Shown here piece by piece: positions 45,403-57,353 of a stretch of DNA of 60,083 nucleotides. The notes under the pieces were generated by a model that ran no database searches, was not told where the DNA came from, and saw nothing but the letters and a program-made list of their open reading frames with translations. Location of the stretch: IMG/VR virus record IMGVR_UViG_3300030109_004892, positions 1-60,083 of that record, one strand, 5' to 3'. How positions within the stretch are numbered: position 1 is the first letter of the stretch; each line of letters starts with the position of its first letter. Position numbers and translations under genes: made by a program. Origin of the DNA: a virus. Lineage: Duplodnaviria; Caudoviricetes.

Positions 45403-46893
45403 ATGGCTGACCTTAATGCTTTTAAGAGGCTAACTAATTTTGATAATTTAAGCCCGAGTGAATTAGAGACATTACAAAAAAAGTTAACACTACGTAAAAA
45501 AACCTTTGATCTAAAATCATTGGCGCAAAATAATTTTTTAAAGTTTGTTAAACAAGTATGGCCTGAGTTTATAGAGGGGCCCCATCACATAAAAATTGCA
45601 GAAAAGTTTCAAGCATTAGCCGAGGGGAAGATAAAACGGCTAATTGTAAATATGCCACCCAGACATACAAAATCAGAATTTGCATCATTCTTATTTCCCG
45701 CATGGATGATGGGCCGTGATCCACGGCTCAAGATTATTCAAACCACCCACACAGCAGAACTATCTTATCGTTTCGGTAGAAAGGTTCGTAACCTTATGGA
45801 AGAAAATACTTTCCAAGATATTTTTGATGACATTCAATTATCCCAAGATTCAAAAGCTGCGGGACGTTGGGAAACAAATAAAGGGGGAGAGTACTTCGCC
45901 GCAGGTGTAGGTGGTGCAATTACAGGACGTGGTGCAGATTTATTAATTATTGATGATCCACATTCCGAGCAAGATGCACTAAGTGAAACGGCAATGGAGT
46001 CAGCTTACGAGTGGTATACATCTGGTCCAAGACAAAGACTTCAACCAGGCGGAAAGATTGTTATTGTTATGACAAGGTGGTCTACAAAAGATCTAACCGG
46101 AGAATTAATGAAAGCACAAAAAGATGTGAAAGCAGATCAGTGGGACGTGATTGAGTTTCCAGCAGTCTTGAATGATAAACCTATTTGGCCAGAATATTGG
46201 AAGCTAGAAGAATTAGAATCGGTTAAAGCTTCACTATCCGTTCCGAAATGGAATGCACAGTGGCAGCAGAATCCAACTTCAGAAGAAGGTTCCATTATAA
46301 AACGAGAGTACTGGCAGATTTGGGATAAGCCCAATCTCCCTAAATTACAACATGTCATTCAATCGTACGACACGGCCTATAGTAAAAAAGAAACTGCAGA
46401 CTTCTCAGCGATAACAACGTGGGGTGTATTTATGCATAATGATATTACCCCTAATATAATTTTGTTAGATGTAGAGAAAGGACGATGGGATTTTCCAAAA
46501 TTAAAAGATGTTGCTTTAGAGCAATATAAATACTGGGAGCCCGAGACAATAATCATTGAGGCGAAAGCAAGTGGATTACCCTTGACTCAAGAACTACGGC
46601 GCTTTGGTATTCCTGTTGTTAATTTTACACCGAGCCGTGGTAATGATAAACATGTAAGAGTAAATGCTGTATCAACACTATTTGAAGCAGGACAGGTATG
46701 GTGTACAGAAGACCGTTGGGCAGAAGAATTAGTTGAAGAATGTGCTGCTTTCCCTTATGGTGACAACGATGATTTAGTTGATAGCATGACACAAGCGTTA
46801 ATGCGTTATCGACAAGTAGGTTTGGCTGTACATCCAGAGGATTATGAGGATCCTCCAGGTCTTCCTCCTACGCAATTGTTGGAGTATTATTGA
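45403..46893 (+). CDS. terL: Terminase large subunit
   Basis: MPPRHTKS, GRGADLLIIDDP, MTRW, SYDTA, IEAKASG, FP....DDLVDS. Confidence 0.97.
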   Translation: MADLNAFKRLTNFDNLSPSELETLQKKLTLRKKTFDLKSLAQNNFLKFVKQVWPEFIEGPHHIKIAEKFQALAEGKIKRLIVNMPPRHTKSEFASFLFPAWMMGRDPRLKIIQTTHTAELSYRFGRKVRNLMEENTFQDIFDDIQLSQDSKAAGRWETNKGGEYFAAGVGGAITGRGADLLIIDDPHSEQDALSETAMESAYEWYTSGPRQRLQPGGKIVIVMTRWSTKDLTGELMKAQKDVKADQWDVIEFPAVLNDKPIWPEYWKLEELESVKASLSVPKWNAQWQQNPTSEEGSIIKREYWQIWDKPNLPKLQHVIQSYDTAYSKKETADFSAITTWGVFMHNDITPNIILLDVEKGRWDFPKLKDVALEQYKYWEPETIIIEAKASGLPLTQELRRFGIPVVNFTPSRGNDKHVRVNAVSTLFEAGQVWCTEDRWAEELVEECAAFPYGDNDDLVDSMTQALMRYRQVGLAVHPEDYEDPPGLPPTQLLEYY

Positions 46894-55139: not shown

Positions 55140-56042
55140 ATGGCTATAAGTAGAGCACAACTAGCTAAAGAGCTAGAACCTGGTTTAAACGCCCTGTTTG
55201 GACTAGAGTACGCACGTTATGAAAACGAGGCCGCAGAAATCTTCGACAATGAATCTAGTGATAGAGCATTCGAAGAAGAGGTTATGTTGGTTGGCTTTGG
55301 CGAAGCTTCTGTAAAAGCGGAAGGTGCAGCAGTTGGTTTTGATACCGCTTCTGAATCTTTCACTGCGAGATACGTGCATGAAACAATTGCACTAGCATTC
55401 GCTTTAACGGAAGAAGCAGTCGAAGATAACTTATATGATACTTTATCTGCTCGTTATACAAAAGCATTGGCTCGTTCAATGGCGTATACAAAACAAGTTA
55501 AAGGTGCTGATGTATTAAACACAGCATTTGCAACGACTGGCGGTGATGGTGTTACTTTATGTAATACTGCACACCCAACTGCTTTAGGTGGTAACTTCTC
55601 AAACAGAAGTGCTACAGATGCAGATTTAAACGAAACCTCATTAGAACAAGCGATGATTGATATTGCTGGTTTTATCGACGAAAGAGGGCTAAAAATTGCA
55701 ATGCAGGGAAGAAAATTAATTATCCCAGTAAACATTCAATTCGTAGCTGATAGAGTCTTGAACTCAACTCTAAGAGTCGGTACTGCTGACAATGATATCA
55801 ACGCTCTGAAAAATATGGGTATGTTACCAGGTGGTTATACAGTTAACCACTATCTATCAGATACTGATGCATACTTTATTAAAACAGATTGTCCTAATGG
55901 ATTCAAACACTTCACAAGAGCTGCCCTTGCTACTGGCATGGAAGGCGATTTTGACACAGGAAATATGAGATACAAAGCTAGAGAGAGATACAGCTTTGGT
56001 TACTCTGATCCTAGAGCGGTTTACGGATCTCAAGGTTCATAA
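55140..56042 (+). CDS. Major capsid protein
   Basis: MAISRAQL.KELEPGLNALFG.EY...TEEA.EDNLY...YKARERYSFG.SDPR. Confidence 0.92.
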   Translation: MAISRAQLAKELEPGLNALFGLEYARYENEAAEIFDNESSDRAFEEEVMLVGFGEASVKAEGAAVGFDTASESFTARYVHETIALAFALTEEAVEDNLYDTLSARYTKALARSMAYTKQVKGADVLNTAFATTGGDGVTLCNTAHPTALGGNFSNRSATDADLNETSLEQAMIDIAGFIDERGLKIAMQGRKLIIPVNIQFVADRVLNSTLRVGTADNDINALKNMGMLPGGYTVNHYLSDTDAYFIKTDCPNGFKHFTRAALATGMEGDFDTGNMRYKARERYSFGYSDPRAVYGSQGS

Positions 56043-56069
56043 AAATTACTGGATCCTCCCAGATAGAAG

Positions 56070-56095
56070 AAGGCGGTTGCAAGACCGCCTTTTTT
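56070..56095 (+). terminator. Intrinsic terminator after MCP
   Basis: AAGGCGGTT-GCAA-GACCGCCTTTTTT (GNRA loop, U-tract). Confidence 0.9.
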
Positions 56096-56111
56096 GTTTT
56101 ACAATATAATT

Positions 56112-56188
56112 CCTAGTATTAATTTAGTTACGCAGACTGGCTAGGCAGACGGTATAGAGACGGCGTAGCGATAATGGTCTATACGACC
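56112..56188 (+). ncRNA. Candidate pseudoknotted cis-regulatory RNA / ncRNA
   Basis: Four helices, three interleaved; TATAAT just upstream, RBS just downstream. Confidence 0.55.
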
Positions 56189-56201
56189 AAAGGAGAATAA
56201 A

Positions 56202-56765
56202 ATGGCTAGAACTACTTTTCAAGGACCAGTAAGATCCCTTAATGGGTTCTTAGGAACAGGTCCTGATATGGCTCAATCAATAAGTGCAGGAACCACAGAC
56301 GGTGGAACTGATATTGCGGGCATAGATAAATATCAAGGCAAGGTTGTACAAATCGGAAACGCCGTTACTGTATTTAACTTACCTTCAATCATAGACACAG
56401 CAAGTTCTGAAACTGCAGGACCAGGAACTGATCCTAACTCTACAAATAGAGTTGGAATGATCTATGAGTTTTTAATGACTGCAAGTTTAACTTCAAGTAA
56501 CACTTTTACTTTAAATGCAGGAACTGCAGCAGGTAGAGATACAGCAGATGTGTTTAGAGGTATGGCGATCTACAACAACACAGCAACTGATCCAGGAGCC
56601 GTGACTGCTTTTAGCGCAGGTGGAACTGACACTTTAACTTTAACTGCTACTACTAAAGGTGGACTAGAAGGAGCTCACATTAGATGTAGAGCTGTTGATG
56701 GTTTAATTTGGTTAGTCGAAGCACAATTAATCGGAAACGGTACATTTGCTAATCCTTGGAGTTAA
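56202..56765 (+). CDS. Minor capsid/head fibre-like protein
   Basis: MARTTFQGPVRS.NGF N-terminus; AAGGAG RBS. Confidence 0.7.
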   Translation: MARTTFQGPVRSLNGFLGTGPDMAQSISAGTTDGGTDIAGIDKYQGKVVQIGNAVTVFNLPSIIDTASSETAGPGTDPNSTNRVGMIYEFLMTASLTSSNTFTLNAGTAAGRDTADVFRGMAIYNNTATDPGAVTAFSAGGTDTLTLTATTKGGLEGAHIRCRAVDGLIWLVEAQLIGNGTFANPWS

Positions 56766-56767
56766 TA

Positions 56768-57082
56768 ATGTTTGCTTTAAAAACTAAACAATTAACTTCT
56801 AGTGGACAAGTAACTACTAAAGTAAGTGCAGGAAGTAATACACTTAGTGCTCCTGCTCGGGTGTTAGGATTAACTGTTCAATGTGGTGGAACTGAAGGCA
56901 GAATTGATTTGGTAGATGATGGTGCAAGTGGCACTGTTAAATTTACTCAAGTTACTCCTGCTATTGGTTCTGGAGAAGATGAGATTCTTCAAATTGATTT
57001 TCCTGAAATGGGATTAAAATTTGATACCGATCTTTATGTTTTCTTTAACCAAGCTACTAAAGTTAATGTAATTTATGGCTAA
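56768..57082 (+). CDS. Small virion structural protein
   Basis: ARV.G...P..G.KF...YV...V..YG pattern; ATG after TAATA. Confidence 0.65.
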   Translation: MFALKTKQLTSSGQVTTKVSAGSNTLSAPARVLGLTVQCGGTEGRIDLVDDGASGTVKFTQVTPAIGSGEDEILQIDFPEMGLKFDTDLYVFFNQATKVNVIYG

Positions 57083-57353
57083 GGATAAACAACCACCAAA
57101 AACAAAAAAATATTTCCGCTCCACAAAGTCTGGGGCGGGAATGACTAAAGCTGGGACTGCACGTTACAGACGTGAGAACCCTGGTTCTAAATTAAAAACA
57201 GCCGTAACAGGCAAAGTTAAAAAAGGATCTAAAGCTGCTAAAAGAAGAAAATCATATTGTGCTAGAAGTGCAGGTCAAATGAAACAGTTTCCTAAAGCTG
57301 CAAAAAATCCTAACTCAAGATTACGTCAAGCAAGAAAAAGATGGAAATGTTAA
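57075..57353 (+). CDS. DUF6321-like basic protein
   Basis: GMT.AG...YR..NPGS.LK...RRKSYCARS...NSRL......WKC. Confidence 0.75.
   Translation: MAKDKQPPKTKKYFRSTKSGAGMTKAGTARYRRENPGSKLKTAVTGKVKKGSKAAKRRKSYCARSAGQMKQFPKAAKNPNSRLRQARKRWKC

What the first reader, a model, noticed from the sequence alone, without database searches (positions are those of the whole stretch)
56105..56200. Compact multi-pseudoknot RNA between the capsid terminator and the next RBS
Seen: helix A CCUAGU(56112-17)/GCUAGG(56140-45); helix B GUUACGC(56127-33)/GCGUAGC(56163-69); hairpin GGUC-UAUAC-GACC (56176-88), whose loop UAUAC is complementary to GUAUA (56152-56; extendable to GUAUAGA/UCUAUAC). The order A-B-A'-C-B'-C' is a chained double pseudoknot with unpaired GAC-rich joiners (AGACUG, CAGAC, AGAGAC). 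A TATAAT lies 1 nt before helix A and the AAGGAG RBS follows the last hairpin immediately. Inference: four helices in 77 nt of a very compact genome suggest a functional RNA, such as a riboswitch-like translational switch, small ribozyme, protein-binding operator or virion RNA. I do not recognise it as a named family.
Basis: partly seen in the sequence, partly recalled or inferred. Interest (0 to 1): 0.85.

Follow-up and report, generated by a model that had tools for sequence, protein, structure and literature searches.

The report
Pseudoknotted leader RNA before capsid-cement gene
A compact, evolutionarily conserved folded RNA sits at the very start of the messenger for a capsid accessory protein in an abundant group of ocean phages; it is a previously unmodelled, knotted version of a known but functionally unexplained phage RNA motif (Mu-gpT-DE) and most likely tunes how much of that protein is made.

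Summary
In the single sequence they are only moderately unusual (24 of 2000 shuffles do as well), but comparison settles it. Upstream of homologues of the 187-aa gene I collected 148 distinct leaders. Helix B is paired in 92.7% of 710 cells, with double-sided changes in 10 of 10 pairs. Helix A has an exact complement in 96 of 96 cases against 18 of 6352 cross-type controls, and helix C in 56 of 57 against 49 of 2010. The "GAC-rich joiners" are three interlocking GAC triplets that close a three-way junction. Two 6-nt arm loops clamp the RNA's 5' end and the strand next to the Shine-Dalgarno sequence. There is one copy per genome. Rfam does not hit the window. A simpler, unknotted form in relatives is Rfam RF03012, Mu-gpT-DE, so this is a new variant of a known, uncharacterised family. 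The downstream protein looks like a capsid spike or cement protein. The likeliest role is cis control of its translation; the effector is unknown.

The parts
55140..56042 (+). Major capsid protein gene (300 aa), Mu-like gpT type
   Evidence: Pfam PF10124 Mu-like_gpT, 27.1 bits against a cutoff of 20.1. PHROG 371 major head protein. blastn to the capsid genes of HTVC023P and HTVC027P.
56070..56099 (+). Intrinsic terminator after the capsid gene: stem AAGGCGGU/ACCGCCUU, loop UGCAAG, then UUUUGUUUU
   Evidence: Read from the sequence. The scan lists the same 8-bp stem but calls it on the - strand only. Most relatives have the same arrangement.
56077..56105 (+). Predicted sigma-70-type promoter: TTGCAA (56077-82), 17 nt, TACAAT (56100-05). 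Predicted +1 is near 56112.
   Evidence: Promoter scan, 9 of 12 matches. TACAAT aligns with GTATAAT/TATAAA of relatives in the alignments. A TATAAT-like hexamer ends 5-9 nt before helix A in 56 of 92 distinct upstream contexts, with a mode of 7. The start site has not been mapped experimentally.
56112..56117 (+). Helix A, 5' arm (CCUAGU), at the predicted 5' end of the RNA
   Evidence: Pairs with 56140-45. Exact complement in 96 of 96 distinct cases against 18 of 6352 cross-type controls. The 5 central pairs are 80/80 paired and all covary.
56118..56126 (+). L1, a variable A/U-rich linker
   Evidence: Length and sequence vary among relatives.
56127..56135 (+). Helix B, 5' arm (GUUACGC, then A mismatch, then G of GAC-1)
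   Evidence: 92.7% of 710 cells paired, 10 of 10 pairs with changes on both sides.
56135..56137 (+). GAC-1. G pairs with C56161, A56136 is unpaired, C pairs with G56148.
   Evidence: Columns 11-13 of A3. G11-C37 is 68 GC and 3 AU. C13-G24 is 71/71.
56137..56148 (+). Arm 2: short stem C56137-G56148, U56138-A56147, G56139-C56146, closing the 6-nt loop GCUAGG 56140-45. That loop is the 3' arm of helix A.
   Evidence: columns 14-23 are paired in 71/71 with five pair types (GC 37, UA 30, CG 2, AU 1, UG 1). Columns 15-22 are paired in 41/71.
56148..56150 (+). GAC-2. G pairs with C56137, A56149 is unpaired, C pairs with G56159.
   Evidence: C26-G35 is 70 CG and 1 UA. The psg01 group also shows U-A here, by eye.
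56150..56159 (+). Arm 3: the C56150-G56159 pair (G56151 faces A56158) closing the loop GUAUAG 56152-57. That loop is the 5' arm of helix C.
56159..56161 (+). GAC-3. G pairs with C56150, A56160 is unpaired, C pairs with G56135.
56161..56169 (+). Helix B, 3' arm (C, then G mismatch, then GCGUAGC)
56175..56189 (+). Subgroup-specific hairpin UGGUC-UAUAC-GACCA. It presents the 3' arm of helix C ((U)CUAUAC, 56178/79-84) in or next to its loop.
   Evidence: Helix C complement: 56 of 57 against 49 of 2010, and 84/84 paired with all 6 pairs covarying. The hairpin stem occurs only in the window's subgroup. It has one compensatory change (UGGUC/GACCA to CGGUC/GACCG in L036 and L046) and an analogue in L095.
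56190..56204 (+). Shine-Dalgarno AAGGAG (56190-95) and the ATG (56202) of the downstream gene
   Evidence: The SD follows the last helix directly.
56202..56765 (+). 187-aa gene with the invariant N-terminus M-A-x-T-T-F-x-G-P-V-x-S. A probable capsid spike/cement (decoration) protein.
   Evidence: No Pfam or PHROG family. AF2 model pLDDT 79. VIA Z 9.9 to the phage Pa223 capsid spike and 8-9.5 to T4 gp9/gp10-like domains. The DSL-LC04 homologue is annotated 'cement protein'.

Best explanation
The element is the 5' leader of the mRNA for a capsid spike/cement protein. It is a pseudoknotted class of the Mu-gpT-DE RNA family.

Structure. Its core is a three-way junction closed by three interlocking GAC triplets: the G of GAC-1 pairs with the C of GAC-3, the C of GAC-1 with the G of GAC-2, and the C of GAC-2 with the G of GAC-3. 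One unpaired A lies in each junction strand. One arm is helix B. The other two arms are very short stems whose 6-nt loops pair outward. One loop pairs with the first nucleotides of the transcript (helix A). The other pairs with the strand just upstream of, or overlapping, the Shine-Dalgarno sequence (helix C). In the window that strand is itself presented by a small hairpin.

Inferred mechanism. The fold ties the ribosome-binding region into one compact unit and so sets or switches translation initiation of the cement gene independently of the capsid gene. The invariant junction nucleotides probably serve as the docking site for an effector, either a protein or a small ligand.

Shown: the base-pairing scheme, its conservation, its strand, its position and its family relationship. 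Inferred: the transcription start, the effect on translation, and the existence and identity of an effector.
For: Structure:
- Helix B: 92.7% of 710 cells paired in an ungapped alignment of 71 distinct cores. 10 of 10 pairs have double-sided changes. Covariation score 0.857 against 0.251 +/- 0.018 (0 of 500 shuffles). Slid controls give 30-41%.
- Helix A: an exact 5-nt Watson-Crick complement in 96 of 96 distinct cases against 18 of 6352 cross-type pairings. Helix C: 56 of 57 against 49 of 2010.
- On equal-spacing subsets the tool counts 80/80 and 84/84 cells paired, with every pair covarying.
- Junction pairs: C13-G24 in 71/71, columns 14-23 in 71/71 with five pair types, C26-G35 as 70 CG plus 1 UA.

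Independent control. A pattern holding only the joiner sequences finds 114 viral matches with enough flank, and 102 of them have all three helices. The same pattern finds 119 mostly chance matches in prokaryote genomes, and only 3 have all three helices. Those 3 are followed by the same ORF type.

Strand. Helix B contains 50 G.U cells.

Position:
- The -10 lies 5-9 nt upstream of helix A in 56 of 92 contexts, and the promoter scan agrees.
- The SD follows or overlaps the last 3' arm in all types.
- 99 of 107 viral pattern matches are followed 27-46 nt later by an ORF opening M-x-x-T/S-x-F-x-G.
- R2 finds one copy in the window's genome and in 4 of 5 further complete genomes searched. The miss is DSL-LC04, where the motif is visible by eye.

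Family. The unknotted relatives score 49.3-72.1 bits on RF03012 against a gathering score of 49. In that model the 3' strand of P1 is the SD itself and the model runs to the AUG.

Intermediate forms. L150, L151, L154 and L156 keep A and B but carry the RF03012-like GCCAAGAC.
Against: - No experiment or read data here show the 5' end, any effect on translation, or a binding partner.
- Metatranscriptome contigs cover the HTVC027P-type leader. They cannot show a start or strand, and DNA may be present in those libraries.
- In the window's own type and in one other type, the SD lies 4-6 nt beyond helix C and is not itself paired. Simple SD occlusion therefore does not hold for every variant.
- The invariant N-terminal peptide of the downstream protein is not notably basic, which weakens the autoregulation idea.
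- Whether the short arm stems and the loop helices A and C form at the same time or alternately is not known.
- The A and C registers were located by complementarity. They are validated only through the cross-type and chance-match controls.
Confidence: 0.55

Rival explanations
1. Passive leader. The fold needs no effector. It protects the 5' end of the mRNA from 5'-end-dependent decay, insulates the ribosome-binding site from upstream sequence, or both. This would give stable, context-independent expression of a structural protein.
For: Helix A begins at the predicted +1, as 5' stabiliser stems do (my recollection of ompA-type and phage leaders, not tested here). In the window the SD itself is free. 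The gene encodes a structural protein needed in many copies.
Against: A mere stabiliser would not need invariant unpaired nucleotides, yet A12, A25 and A34 are invariant across 71 distinct cores and A36 nearly so. It would not need a fixed 27-nt core in 111 of 148 distinct leaders. It would not need a 3' strand that overlaps the SD, as in the RF03012 form and in the CUAGG-AG types.
Confidence: 0.25
2. Small-molecule riboswitch. The junction formed by the three GAC triplets would be a ligand pocket, and ligand binding would stabilise the fold that holds the SD-proximal strand.
For: The architecture is a three-way junction with invariant junction nucleotides, peripheral tertiary pairings and a 3' strand coupled to the SD. 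As I recall, this resembles junction-type riboswitches such as the purine class. That is a lead, not a test.
Against: The regulated gene is a capsid accessory protein, not a metabolic or transport gene. No riboswitch family scores: preQ1-II reaches only 17 bits, E = 4.5. No ligand is suggested by the gene context.
Confidence: 0.1
3. Self-cleaving ribozyme or processing site that trims the mRNA.
For: The RNA is compact and pseudoknotted with conserved unpaired nucleotides, and small ribozymes are common in phage metagenomes (recalled).
Against: No ribozyme family reaches its gathering score. The window shows none. The only ribozyme row among 20 relatives is a sub-threshold Twister-P5 match at L157 178-227, away from the leader (22.1 bits against a gathering score of 37.6, E = 1). 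The element begins at the predicted +1, so no upstream RNA would be removed. The 3' end is fused to the SD and AUG in every variant.
Confidence: 0.04
4. DNA-level element. The three AGAC-N-G-hexamer repeats and near-palindromes (CCTAGG, GTATAC) would be binding sites for a DNA-binding protein, or the helices would be a chance pattern.
For: The core reads as three similar units, and several arms are near-palindromic.
Against: Helix B varies freely in sequence while staying complementary: there are 78 distinct arm pairs among the 139 parsed leaders and 62 among pattern hits. G.U pairs occur on the + strand only, 50 cells. Arms A and C change to unrelated sequences together with their distant partners. 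Chance matches of the same pattern lack the helices, 116 of 119.
Confidence: 0.02

Closest known systems
Mu-gpT-DE RNA (Rfam RF03012). As I recall it was described in the supplement of Weinberg et al. 2017, NAR 45:10811. The main text I searched does not mention it, and supplements are closed.
   Same: Same genomic place: after a Mu-like gpT capsid gene and directly before a gene opening M-A-x-T-T-F-S-G-P. Same three GAC triplets. Same closing helix formed by the G of the first GAC and the C of the third. Same C-G closure between the first and second GAC. The 3' strand is coupled to the SD. Function is unknown in both.
   Different: The RF03012 model does not hit the window (0 at gathering; not listed at E <= 10). 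It also does not hit 10 class-I loci at E <= 1. In the window the P2 hairpin is reduced to 2-3 bp with a 6-nt loop that pairs with the RNA's 5' end. The conserved single strand ACUAGCCAA is replaced by a 6-nt loop that pairs downstream. The closing helix is 8-10 bp and no longer contains the SD. The result is two pseudoknots that RF03012 lacks.
Phage T4 gene 32 leader pseudoknot (an autogenous translational operator). Recalled, and cited as background in PMC10690425, passages seen.
   Same: A pseudoknotted 5' leader directly upstream of a phage gene that is needed in stoichiometric amounts. It is a model for protein-mediated translational repression.
   Different: No sequence or architectural similarity was tested or seen. 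The T4 element nucleates cooperative binding of an ssDNA-binding protein, and nothing comparable is shown here.
Junction-type riboswitch aptamers, for example the purine class (recalled)
   Same: A three-way junction with conserved junction nucleotides, peripheral loop contacts that lock the fold, and the closing-helix or 3' strand linked to the expression platform.
   Different: Here the loops pair with the flanking strands rather than with each other. No ligand is known, the gene is non-metabolic, and no Rfam riboswitch model scores.
Candidate structured RNAs from IMG/VR (the 8,495 'DNAVirus_N' csRNAs of PMC10690425)
   Same: That screen used the same data source (IMG/VR intergenic regions) and the same kind of evidence (covariation). 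This abundant motif may well be among its unnamed candidates.
   Different: The main-text passages I saw do not describe it.

Membership tests
Mu-gpT-DE RNA (RF03012) | Scores at or above the family's gathering threshold (49 bits) on the Rfam covariance model | tested here: not met
   Window: 0 matches at gathering. RF03012 is absent from the 11 matches at E <= 10 in 55900-56400. Positive controls: 8 class-II loci score 49.3-72.1 bits and CRP-902 scores 72.3.
Mu-gpT-DE RNA (RF03012) | Lies downstream of a Mu-like gpT major head gene | tested here: met
   The gene at 55140-56042 hits PF10124 Mu-like_gpT at 27.1 bits against a cutoff of 20.1. The element starts 70 nt after its stop.
Mu-gpT-DE RNA (RF03012) | Closing helix P1 whose innermost pair joins the G of the first GAC to the C of the third GAC | tested here: met
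   G56135-C56161. Columns 11-37 of A3 are 68 GC and 3 AU. The equivalent pair is G5-C39 of the RF03012 consensus.
Mu-gpT-DE RNA (RF03012) | P2 hairpin closed by the C of the first GAC and the G of the second GAC | tested here: inconclusive
   The closing pairs are present and covary: C13-G24 in 71/71 and columns 14-23 in 71/71 with five pair types. However, the stem is only 2-3 bp and its 6-nt loop pairs with the 5' end instead of being a plain hairpin loop.
Mu-gpT-DE RNA (RF03012) | Conserved single-stranded ACAcUAGCCAcGA between P2 and the 3' strand of P1 | tested here: not met
   The window has G-GUAUAG-A at 56151-58 instead. Hybrid loci L150, L151, L154 and L156 keep GCCAAGAC.
Mu-gpT-DE RNA (RF03012) | The 3' strand of P1 is part of the Shine-Dalgarno sequence, and the model runs to the AUG | tested here: not met
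   In the window the 3' arm of helix B (56161-69) lies 21 nt before the SD. The SD is instead preceded by helix C and its hairpin.
Known self-cleaving ribozyme families in Rfam (hammerhead, twister, pistol, hatchet, HDV-like) | A match to the family covariance model | tested here: not met
   No such family appears at E <= 10 around the element. Among 20 relatives the only ribozyme row is a sub-threshold Twister-P5 match at L157 178-227, away from the leader (22.1 bits against a gathering score of 37.6, E = 1). No cleavage chemistry can be tested with these tools.
Known riboswitch classes in Rfam | A match to the family covariance model | tested here: not met
   The best is preQ1-II at 17 bits against a gathering score of 47, E = 4.5. 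Ligand binding is not testable here.

The most novel reading that the evidence does not exclude
The GAC-triad junction is a sensor. It could be an autoregulatory operator in which the probably trimeric spike/cement protein docks on the three-fold pseudo-symmetric junction when it is in excess over capsids. Docking would use its invariant N-terminal arm, the only part conserved across proteins of 67-306 aa. Alternatively the junction could be a new riboswitch class. Either way it would set cement-to-capsid stoichiometry in the ocean's most abundant pelagiphage group.
Probability: 0.2. Interest if true: 0.8.

Novelty: new variant of a known kind. Interest (0 to 1): 0.62.

Why it matters
[quoted passage not shown] Every complete genome of the type that I searched carries exactly one copy of this RNA at the same place.

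The work does four things:
- It links an orphan Rfam motif (Mu-gpT-DE, function unknown) to a specific downstream gene family and to its ribosome-binding site.
- It shows that the motif's core is a three-way junction of interlocking GAC triplets.
- It defines a double-pseudoknotted class that current models miss, so annotation pipelines overlook it.
- It gives a concrete and cheap experimental handle on how a phage decouples expression of a capsid accessory protein from its major capsid protein. The tools are compensatory mutants, toeprinting and binding tests with the encoded protein.

Tried and rejected
- My first structure string placed the 3' arm of helix C one base too far (56185 instead of 56184). 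The helix-3 figures (33% paired) are therefore meaningless, and model R1 carries a wrong C register. R1 was used only to show that the window holds a single strong match and to make alignment A2.
- Blind MAFFT alignments (A1, A4, and local trials) do not keep the A5' and C3' arms in register across types. A4 was not scored, and no third covariance model was built.
- The cross-match test that allowed G.U pairs and 5 of 6 matches was uninformative for helix A: 42% of cross pairings reach 5 or more. It was replaced by the exact-complement test.
- blastn of the 47-nt cores against cultured phages gave only HTVC023P and HTVC027P as credible hits. The Rhizobium and Salmonella phage hits lie inside coding genes at E of 0.3-3.
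- tblastn of the protein found the same two phages.
- The profile of the protein against PDB sequences found nothing meaningful.
- Metatranscriptome contigs (4 runs, one study) cover the leader of the HTVC027P-like locus L236, but they say nothing about a 5' end, strand or level.
- The idea that the RF03012 loop UAGCCA pairs with UGGCUA at the start codon: a perfect 6 bp in 8 of 13 distinct class-II or hybrid leaders, with 3 loop variants that do not covary and 1 that does. Left open.
- No complex prediction was run, because no protein-protein claim is made.
Full report
**What is in the window**

The window is a whole, about 98% complete IMG/VR virus genome of 60,083 bp. It is related to the HTVC023P-type pelagiphages. 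blastn of 55140-56770 matches HTVC023P at 67% identity, and also 023Pt_psg01 and HTVC027P.

The finding lies between two genes:
- The major capsid gene at 55140-56042. It matches Pfam Mu-like_gpT at 27.1 bits.
- A 187-aa ORF at 56202-56765 that has no Pfam or PHROG family.

The sequence after the capsid stop codon runs as follows:
- a GC-rich stem-loop at 56070-91 with a U-tract;
- a promoter-like pair, TTGCAA (56077-82), 17 nt, TACAAT (56100-05);
- the element at 56112-56189;
- AAGGAG at 56190-95;
- ATG at 56202.

**Checking the observation**

On the window alone the pattern is only moderately unusual. The best triple of helices in the order A-B-A'-C-B'-C' totals 20 bp, and 24 of 2000 dinucleotide shuffles reach that. 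An ordinary nested fold has z = -0.89. Rfam gives nothing at gathering thresholds in the whole window and only noise at E <= 10 around the element. There are no tRNAs.

**Relatives**

I searched IMG/VR with the 187-aa protein and with its homologues from HTVC023P, HTVC027P and psg01. This returned 80, 80, 22 and 80 loci. Some loci were returned by more than one search. The kept loci were the best 80 of 120, 156 and 277 relatives in three of the searches.

From these loci, plus the three named phages and the window, 245 leaders had at least 110 nt upstream of a start codon. They reduce to 148 distinct 100-nt leaders. The leader travels with the downstream gene, not with the capsid gene: in HTVC027P and psg01, extra ORFs separate the capsid gene from it.

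**Helix B**

In 111 of the 148 distinct leaders the stretch between the inner ends of helix B is exactly 27 nt: G-AC-NN-(6 nt)-NN-GACG-(6 nt)-AGA-C. Cutting 10 nt on each side gives 71 distinct 47-nt sequences, and these align without a single gap (A3).

On this alignment, which is anchored only by the conserved core:
- the ten pairs of helix B are standard pairs in 92.7% of 710 cells;
- all ten pairs show changes on both sides;
- the covariation score is 0.857 against 0.251 +/- 0.018 in shuffles (0 of 500 reach it);
- sliding the partner by 1-3 columns drops pairing to 30-41%.

Even the innermost G-C pair, made from the first and third GAC, switches to A-U in 3 sequences. Fifty cells are G.U, which would be A.C on the other strand. 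The structure therefore belongs to the + strand transcript.

In the window, helix B is G56127-C56169 through C56133-G56163, then an A56134.G56162 mismatch, then G56135-C56161.

**Helices A and C**

Their outer arms sit at variable distances, and MAFFT does not keep them in register. I therefore tested them in three ways.

1. Exact complements. For each distinct combination of inner arm and flanking region I asked whether the exact Watson-Crick complement of the five arm bases occurs in the flank (26 nt upstream for A; downstream to 4 nt before the AUG for C). It does in 96 of 96 cases for A and 56 of 57 for C. When arms are matched against flanks of sequences with a different arm, it occurs in 18 of 6352 and 49 of 2010 cases. 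There are 10 distinct A arms and 8 distinct C arms in this set.

2. Selection blind to the arms. A pattern holding only the joiners was scanned over IMG/VR and over one genome per prokaryote species.

| Source of pattern matches | Matches with enough flank | Helix B, 6 or more of 8 pairs | Exact A complement | Exact C complement | All three |
|---|---|---|---|---|---|
| IMG/VR viral contigs | 114 | 109 | 108 | 108 | 102 |
| Prokaryote genome contigs (mostly chance matches) | 119 | 8 | 6 | 12 | 3 |

The 3 genome matches with all three helices are followed by the same ORF type. In the viral set there are 11 distinct A arms, 14 distinct C arms and 62 distinct B arm pairs.

3. Equal-spacing subsets that align without gaps. 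The tool counts the five central pairs of A as paired in 80 of 80 cells, and the six pairs of C as paired in 84 of 84 cells. Every pair changes on both sides, and 0 of 500 shuffles reach the covariation score. These subsets were chosen using the complement's position, so they lean towards the structure. Tests 1 and 2 are the unbiased ones.

**The joiners are a three-way junction**

On A3:
- column 13 (C of the first GAC) and column 24 (G of the second GAC) are C-G in 71 of 71;
- the next pair, columns 14-23, is paired in 71 of 71 with five pair types (GC 37, UA 30, CG 2, AU 1, UG 1);
- columns 15-22 pair in 41 of 71;
- column 26 (C of the second GAC) and column 35 (G of the third GAC) are C-G in 70 and U-A in 1.

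The psg01 group has AAC, GAU and AAU in place of the three GACs. That pattern keeps two of the three closures as A-U or U-A. I read this by eye.

The three triplets therefore interlock: G1-C3, C1-G2 and C2-G3. Each leaves its A unpaired. 137 of 148 distinct leaders hold three or more GAC in the 85 nt before the AUG, against 7.5% of shuffles. Most of the 11 exceptions carry these covarying replacements.

The arms of the junction are:
- helix B;
- a 2-3 bp stem with a 6-nt loop, which is the inner arm of helix A;
- a 1-bp closure (plus a G facing an A) with a 6-nt loop, which is the inner arm of helix C.

Whether the short stems and the loop helices coexist, as fully paired 6-nt loops do in kissing complexes by my recollection, or alternate, cannot be decided here.

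GGUC-UAUAC-GACC extends to UGGUC/GACCA at 56175-89. It is found only in the window's own subgroup. There it shows one compensatory change (CGGUC/GACCG in L036 and L046), and L095 has an analogous hairpin with a different stem. In other types the 3' arm of helix C is a plain strand.

**Ends of the element**

5' side:
- It is the hexamer the promoter scan pairs with a -35.
- A TATAAT-like hexamer ends 5-9 nt before helix A in 56 of 92 distinct contexts, with a mode of 7.
- This puts the predicted +1 at about 56112, the first base of helix A. It has not been mapped.

3' side:
- The SD follows the last helix directly in most types, for example CUAUAG-AGGAG.
- In the CUAGG-AG types it overlaps the helix by 3-4 nt.
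- In the window's type and one other it lies 4-6 nt beyond helix C.

**Family relationship**

Some homologous genes carry a simpler leader: CCUGAC-hairpin-GAC-ACUAGCCAAGAC-AGGAG. Scanning 20 diverse loci against Rfam showed that this form is RF03012, Mu-gpT-DE.
- 8 loci score 49.3-72.1 bits against a gathering score of 49, and 2 more score 48.7 and 43.2.
- The Roseobacter phage CRP-902 scores 72.3.
- In that model P1 (CCUG/CAGG) is closed by the G of the first GAC and the C of the third.
- P2 is closed by the C of the first GAC and the G of the second.
- The 3' strand of P1 is the SD, and the model ends at the AUG.

None of the 10 class-I loci in that scan is hit by RF03012 at E <= 1, and neither is the window. 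Loci L150, L151, L154 and L156 are intermediates: they have helices A and B together with the RF03012-like GCCAAGAC.

The window's element is thus a double-pseudoknotted class of the same family. The closing helix has moved away from the SD, and helix C has taken over the contact with the SD-proximal strand.

The freshwater phage DSL-LC04 carries class I with a U-A innermost pair. My core model R2 misses it. R2 finds exactly one copy in the window and in HTVC023P, HTVC027P and two complete IMG/VR genomes.

**The downstream gene**

- 99 of 107 viral pattern matches with enough downstream sequence are followed, 27-46 nt after the core, by an ATG opening M-x-x-T/S-x-F-x-G.
- The listed proteins range from 67 to 306 aa and share little beyond M-A-N-T-T-F-S-G-P-V-R-S-x-N-G-F.
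- An AlphaFold model from 26 homologues (pLDDT 79, pTM 0.76, all-beta, N-terminal 20 residues at low confidence) aligns best with the capsid spike of Pseudomonas phage Pa223: Z 9.9, rmsd 2.4 over 98 residues.
- It also aligns with T4 gp9/gp10-like domains of baseplate and tailspike proteins at Z 8-9.5. The Foldseek E-value for the best PDB match is 2.4e-3.
- The DSL-LC04 homologue is annotated 'cement protein'. The paper on that phage does not discuss this.

I read the gene as encoding a capsid spike/cement protein with a conserved N-terminal anchor. This is an inference from fold and position, not a demonstration.

**Mechanism**

Shown: a conserved RNA fold on the coding strand, present once per genome. 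It starts at a predicted promoter's +1 and ends at the RBS of one gene family. In one class the SD is part of the closing helix, and in the other the SD abuts or overlaps helix C.

Inferred: the fold governs translation initiation of the cement gene. This decouples it from the capsid gene, whose transcript has its own terminator. The invariant junction (three As flanked by G-C pairs) is the feature hardest to explain by stability alone, and it suggests a binding site.

My estimates are:
- cis translational control, about 0.55;
- a passive stabiliser or insulator, 0.25;
- a small-molecule riboswitch, 0.10;
- a ribozyme, 0.04;
- a DNA-level element or chance, 0.02.

**Expression data**

One run search and one laying were possible. 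Contigs from four metatranscriptome runs of one study cover the leader of L236, a locus 99.9% identical to HTVC027P. Contigs cannot show starts, strand or level, and DNA may be present in such libraries. This is no more than compatible with transcription. An infection transcriptome of HTVC027P exists (PMC12753301; abstract and passages seen) and could be re-analysed.

**Literature**

- The term HTVC023P occurs in 10 papers of the library. In the main genomic one (PMC9599517) the words promoter, riboswitch, pseudoknot, secondary structure, intergenic and RNA polymerase do not occur.
- 'Mu-gpT-DE' occurs in 2 held records of one work (PMC7657543). There it is only listed among families for which CaCoFold finds extra covarying pairs.
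- The main text of Weinberg et al. 2017 (PMC5737381) does not mention it. I recall that the motif comes from that paper's supplement.
- PMC10690425 reports 8,495 unnamed candidate structured RNAs from IMG/VR. The passages I saw do not describe this one.

**Verdict**

It is a new, pseudoknotted variant of a known but uncharacterised family. Its function is inferred, not shown.

Noticed in passing
window 56202-56250, and the homologous ORF starts in L004-L376: The first ~16 residues (M-A-N/R-T-T-F-S/Q-G-P-V-R-S-x-N-G-F) are nearly invariant across proteins that otherwise differ in length (67-306 aa) and sequence. Codons differ synonymously between phages, so the constraint is on the peptide. The RNA motif and this peptide always travel together.
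   Followed up: partly
L129, L144-L146, L152, L153, L155, L156, L159-L161, L185, L378 (class II / RF03012 leaders): The conserved loop UAGCCA of Mu-gpT-DE is complementary to UGGCUA, which spans the start codon and the Ala codon. The 6 bp are perfect in 8 of 13 distinct leaders. Three loop variants (UUGCCA) do not covary and one does. It may be the class-II counterpart of helix C, or it may be coincidence.
   Followed up: partly
window 56077-56105: The predicted -35 (TTGCAA) lies inside the loop and stem of the capsid gene's terminator, so terminator and promoter overlap. Most relatives show the same terminator, then TGTATAAT, then leader layout.
   Followed up: partly
window 56140-45 and 56152-57 compared with L009/L024-type leaders: Between leader types the sequences of helices A and C are swapped. 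CCUAG/CUAGG is helix A and GUAUAG/CUAUAC is helix C in the window. CUAUAC/GUAUAG is helix A and CCUAG/CUAGG is helix C in the HTVC027P-like types. This fits a pseudo-symmetric core, but the swap is unexplained.
   Followed up: no
window 46434-46510 (+): A weak match (16.8 bits, E = 0.4) to the faulty full-length model R1. It mostly reflects promoter-like and RBS-like ends. The core model R2 does not find it. Probably just another promoter and RBS.
   Followed up: partly
L408, L466, L471 (prokaryote genome contigs): Three of 119 pattern matches in prokaryote genome contigs are complete class-I motifs followed by the M-x-x-T-x-F-x-G ORF. One lies in a contig labelled Gammaproteobacteria bacterium. 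They may be prophages or phage contigs binned with MAGs. Their context was not examined.
   Followed up: no
window 57075-57353: The 92-aa ORF two genes downstream matches Pfam DUF6321 (44.9 bits) and the C-terminal ends of several long PHROG families of unknown function.
   Followed up: no
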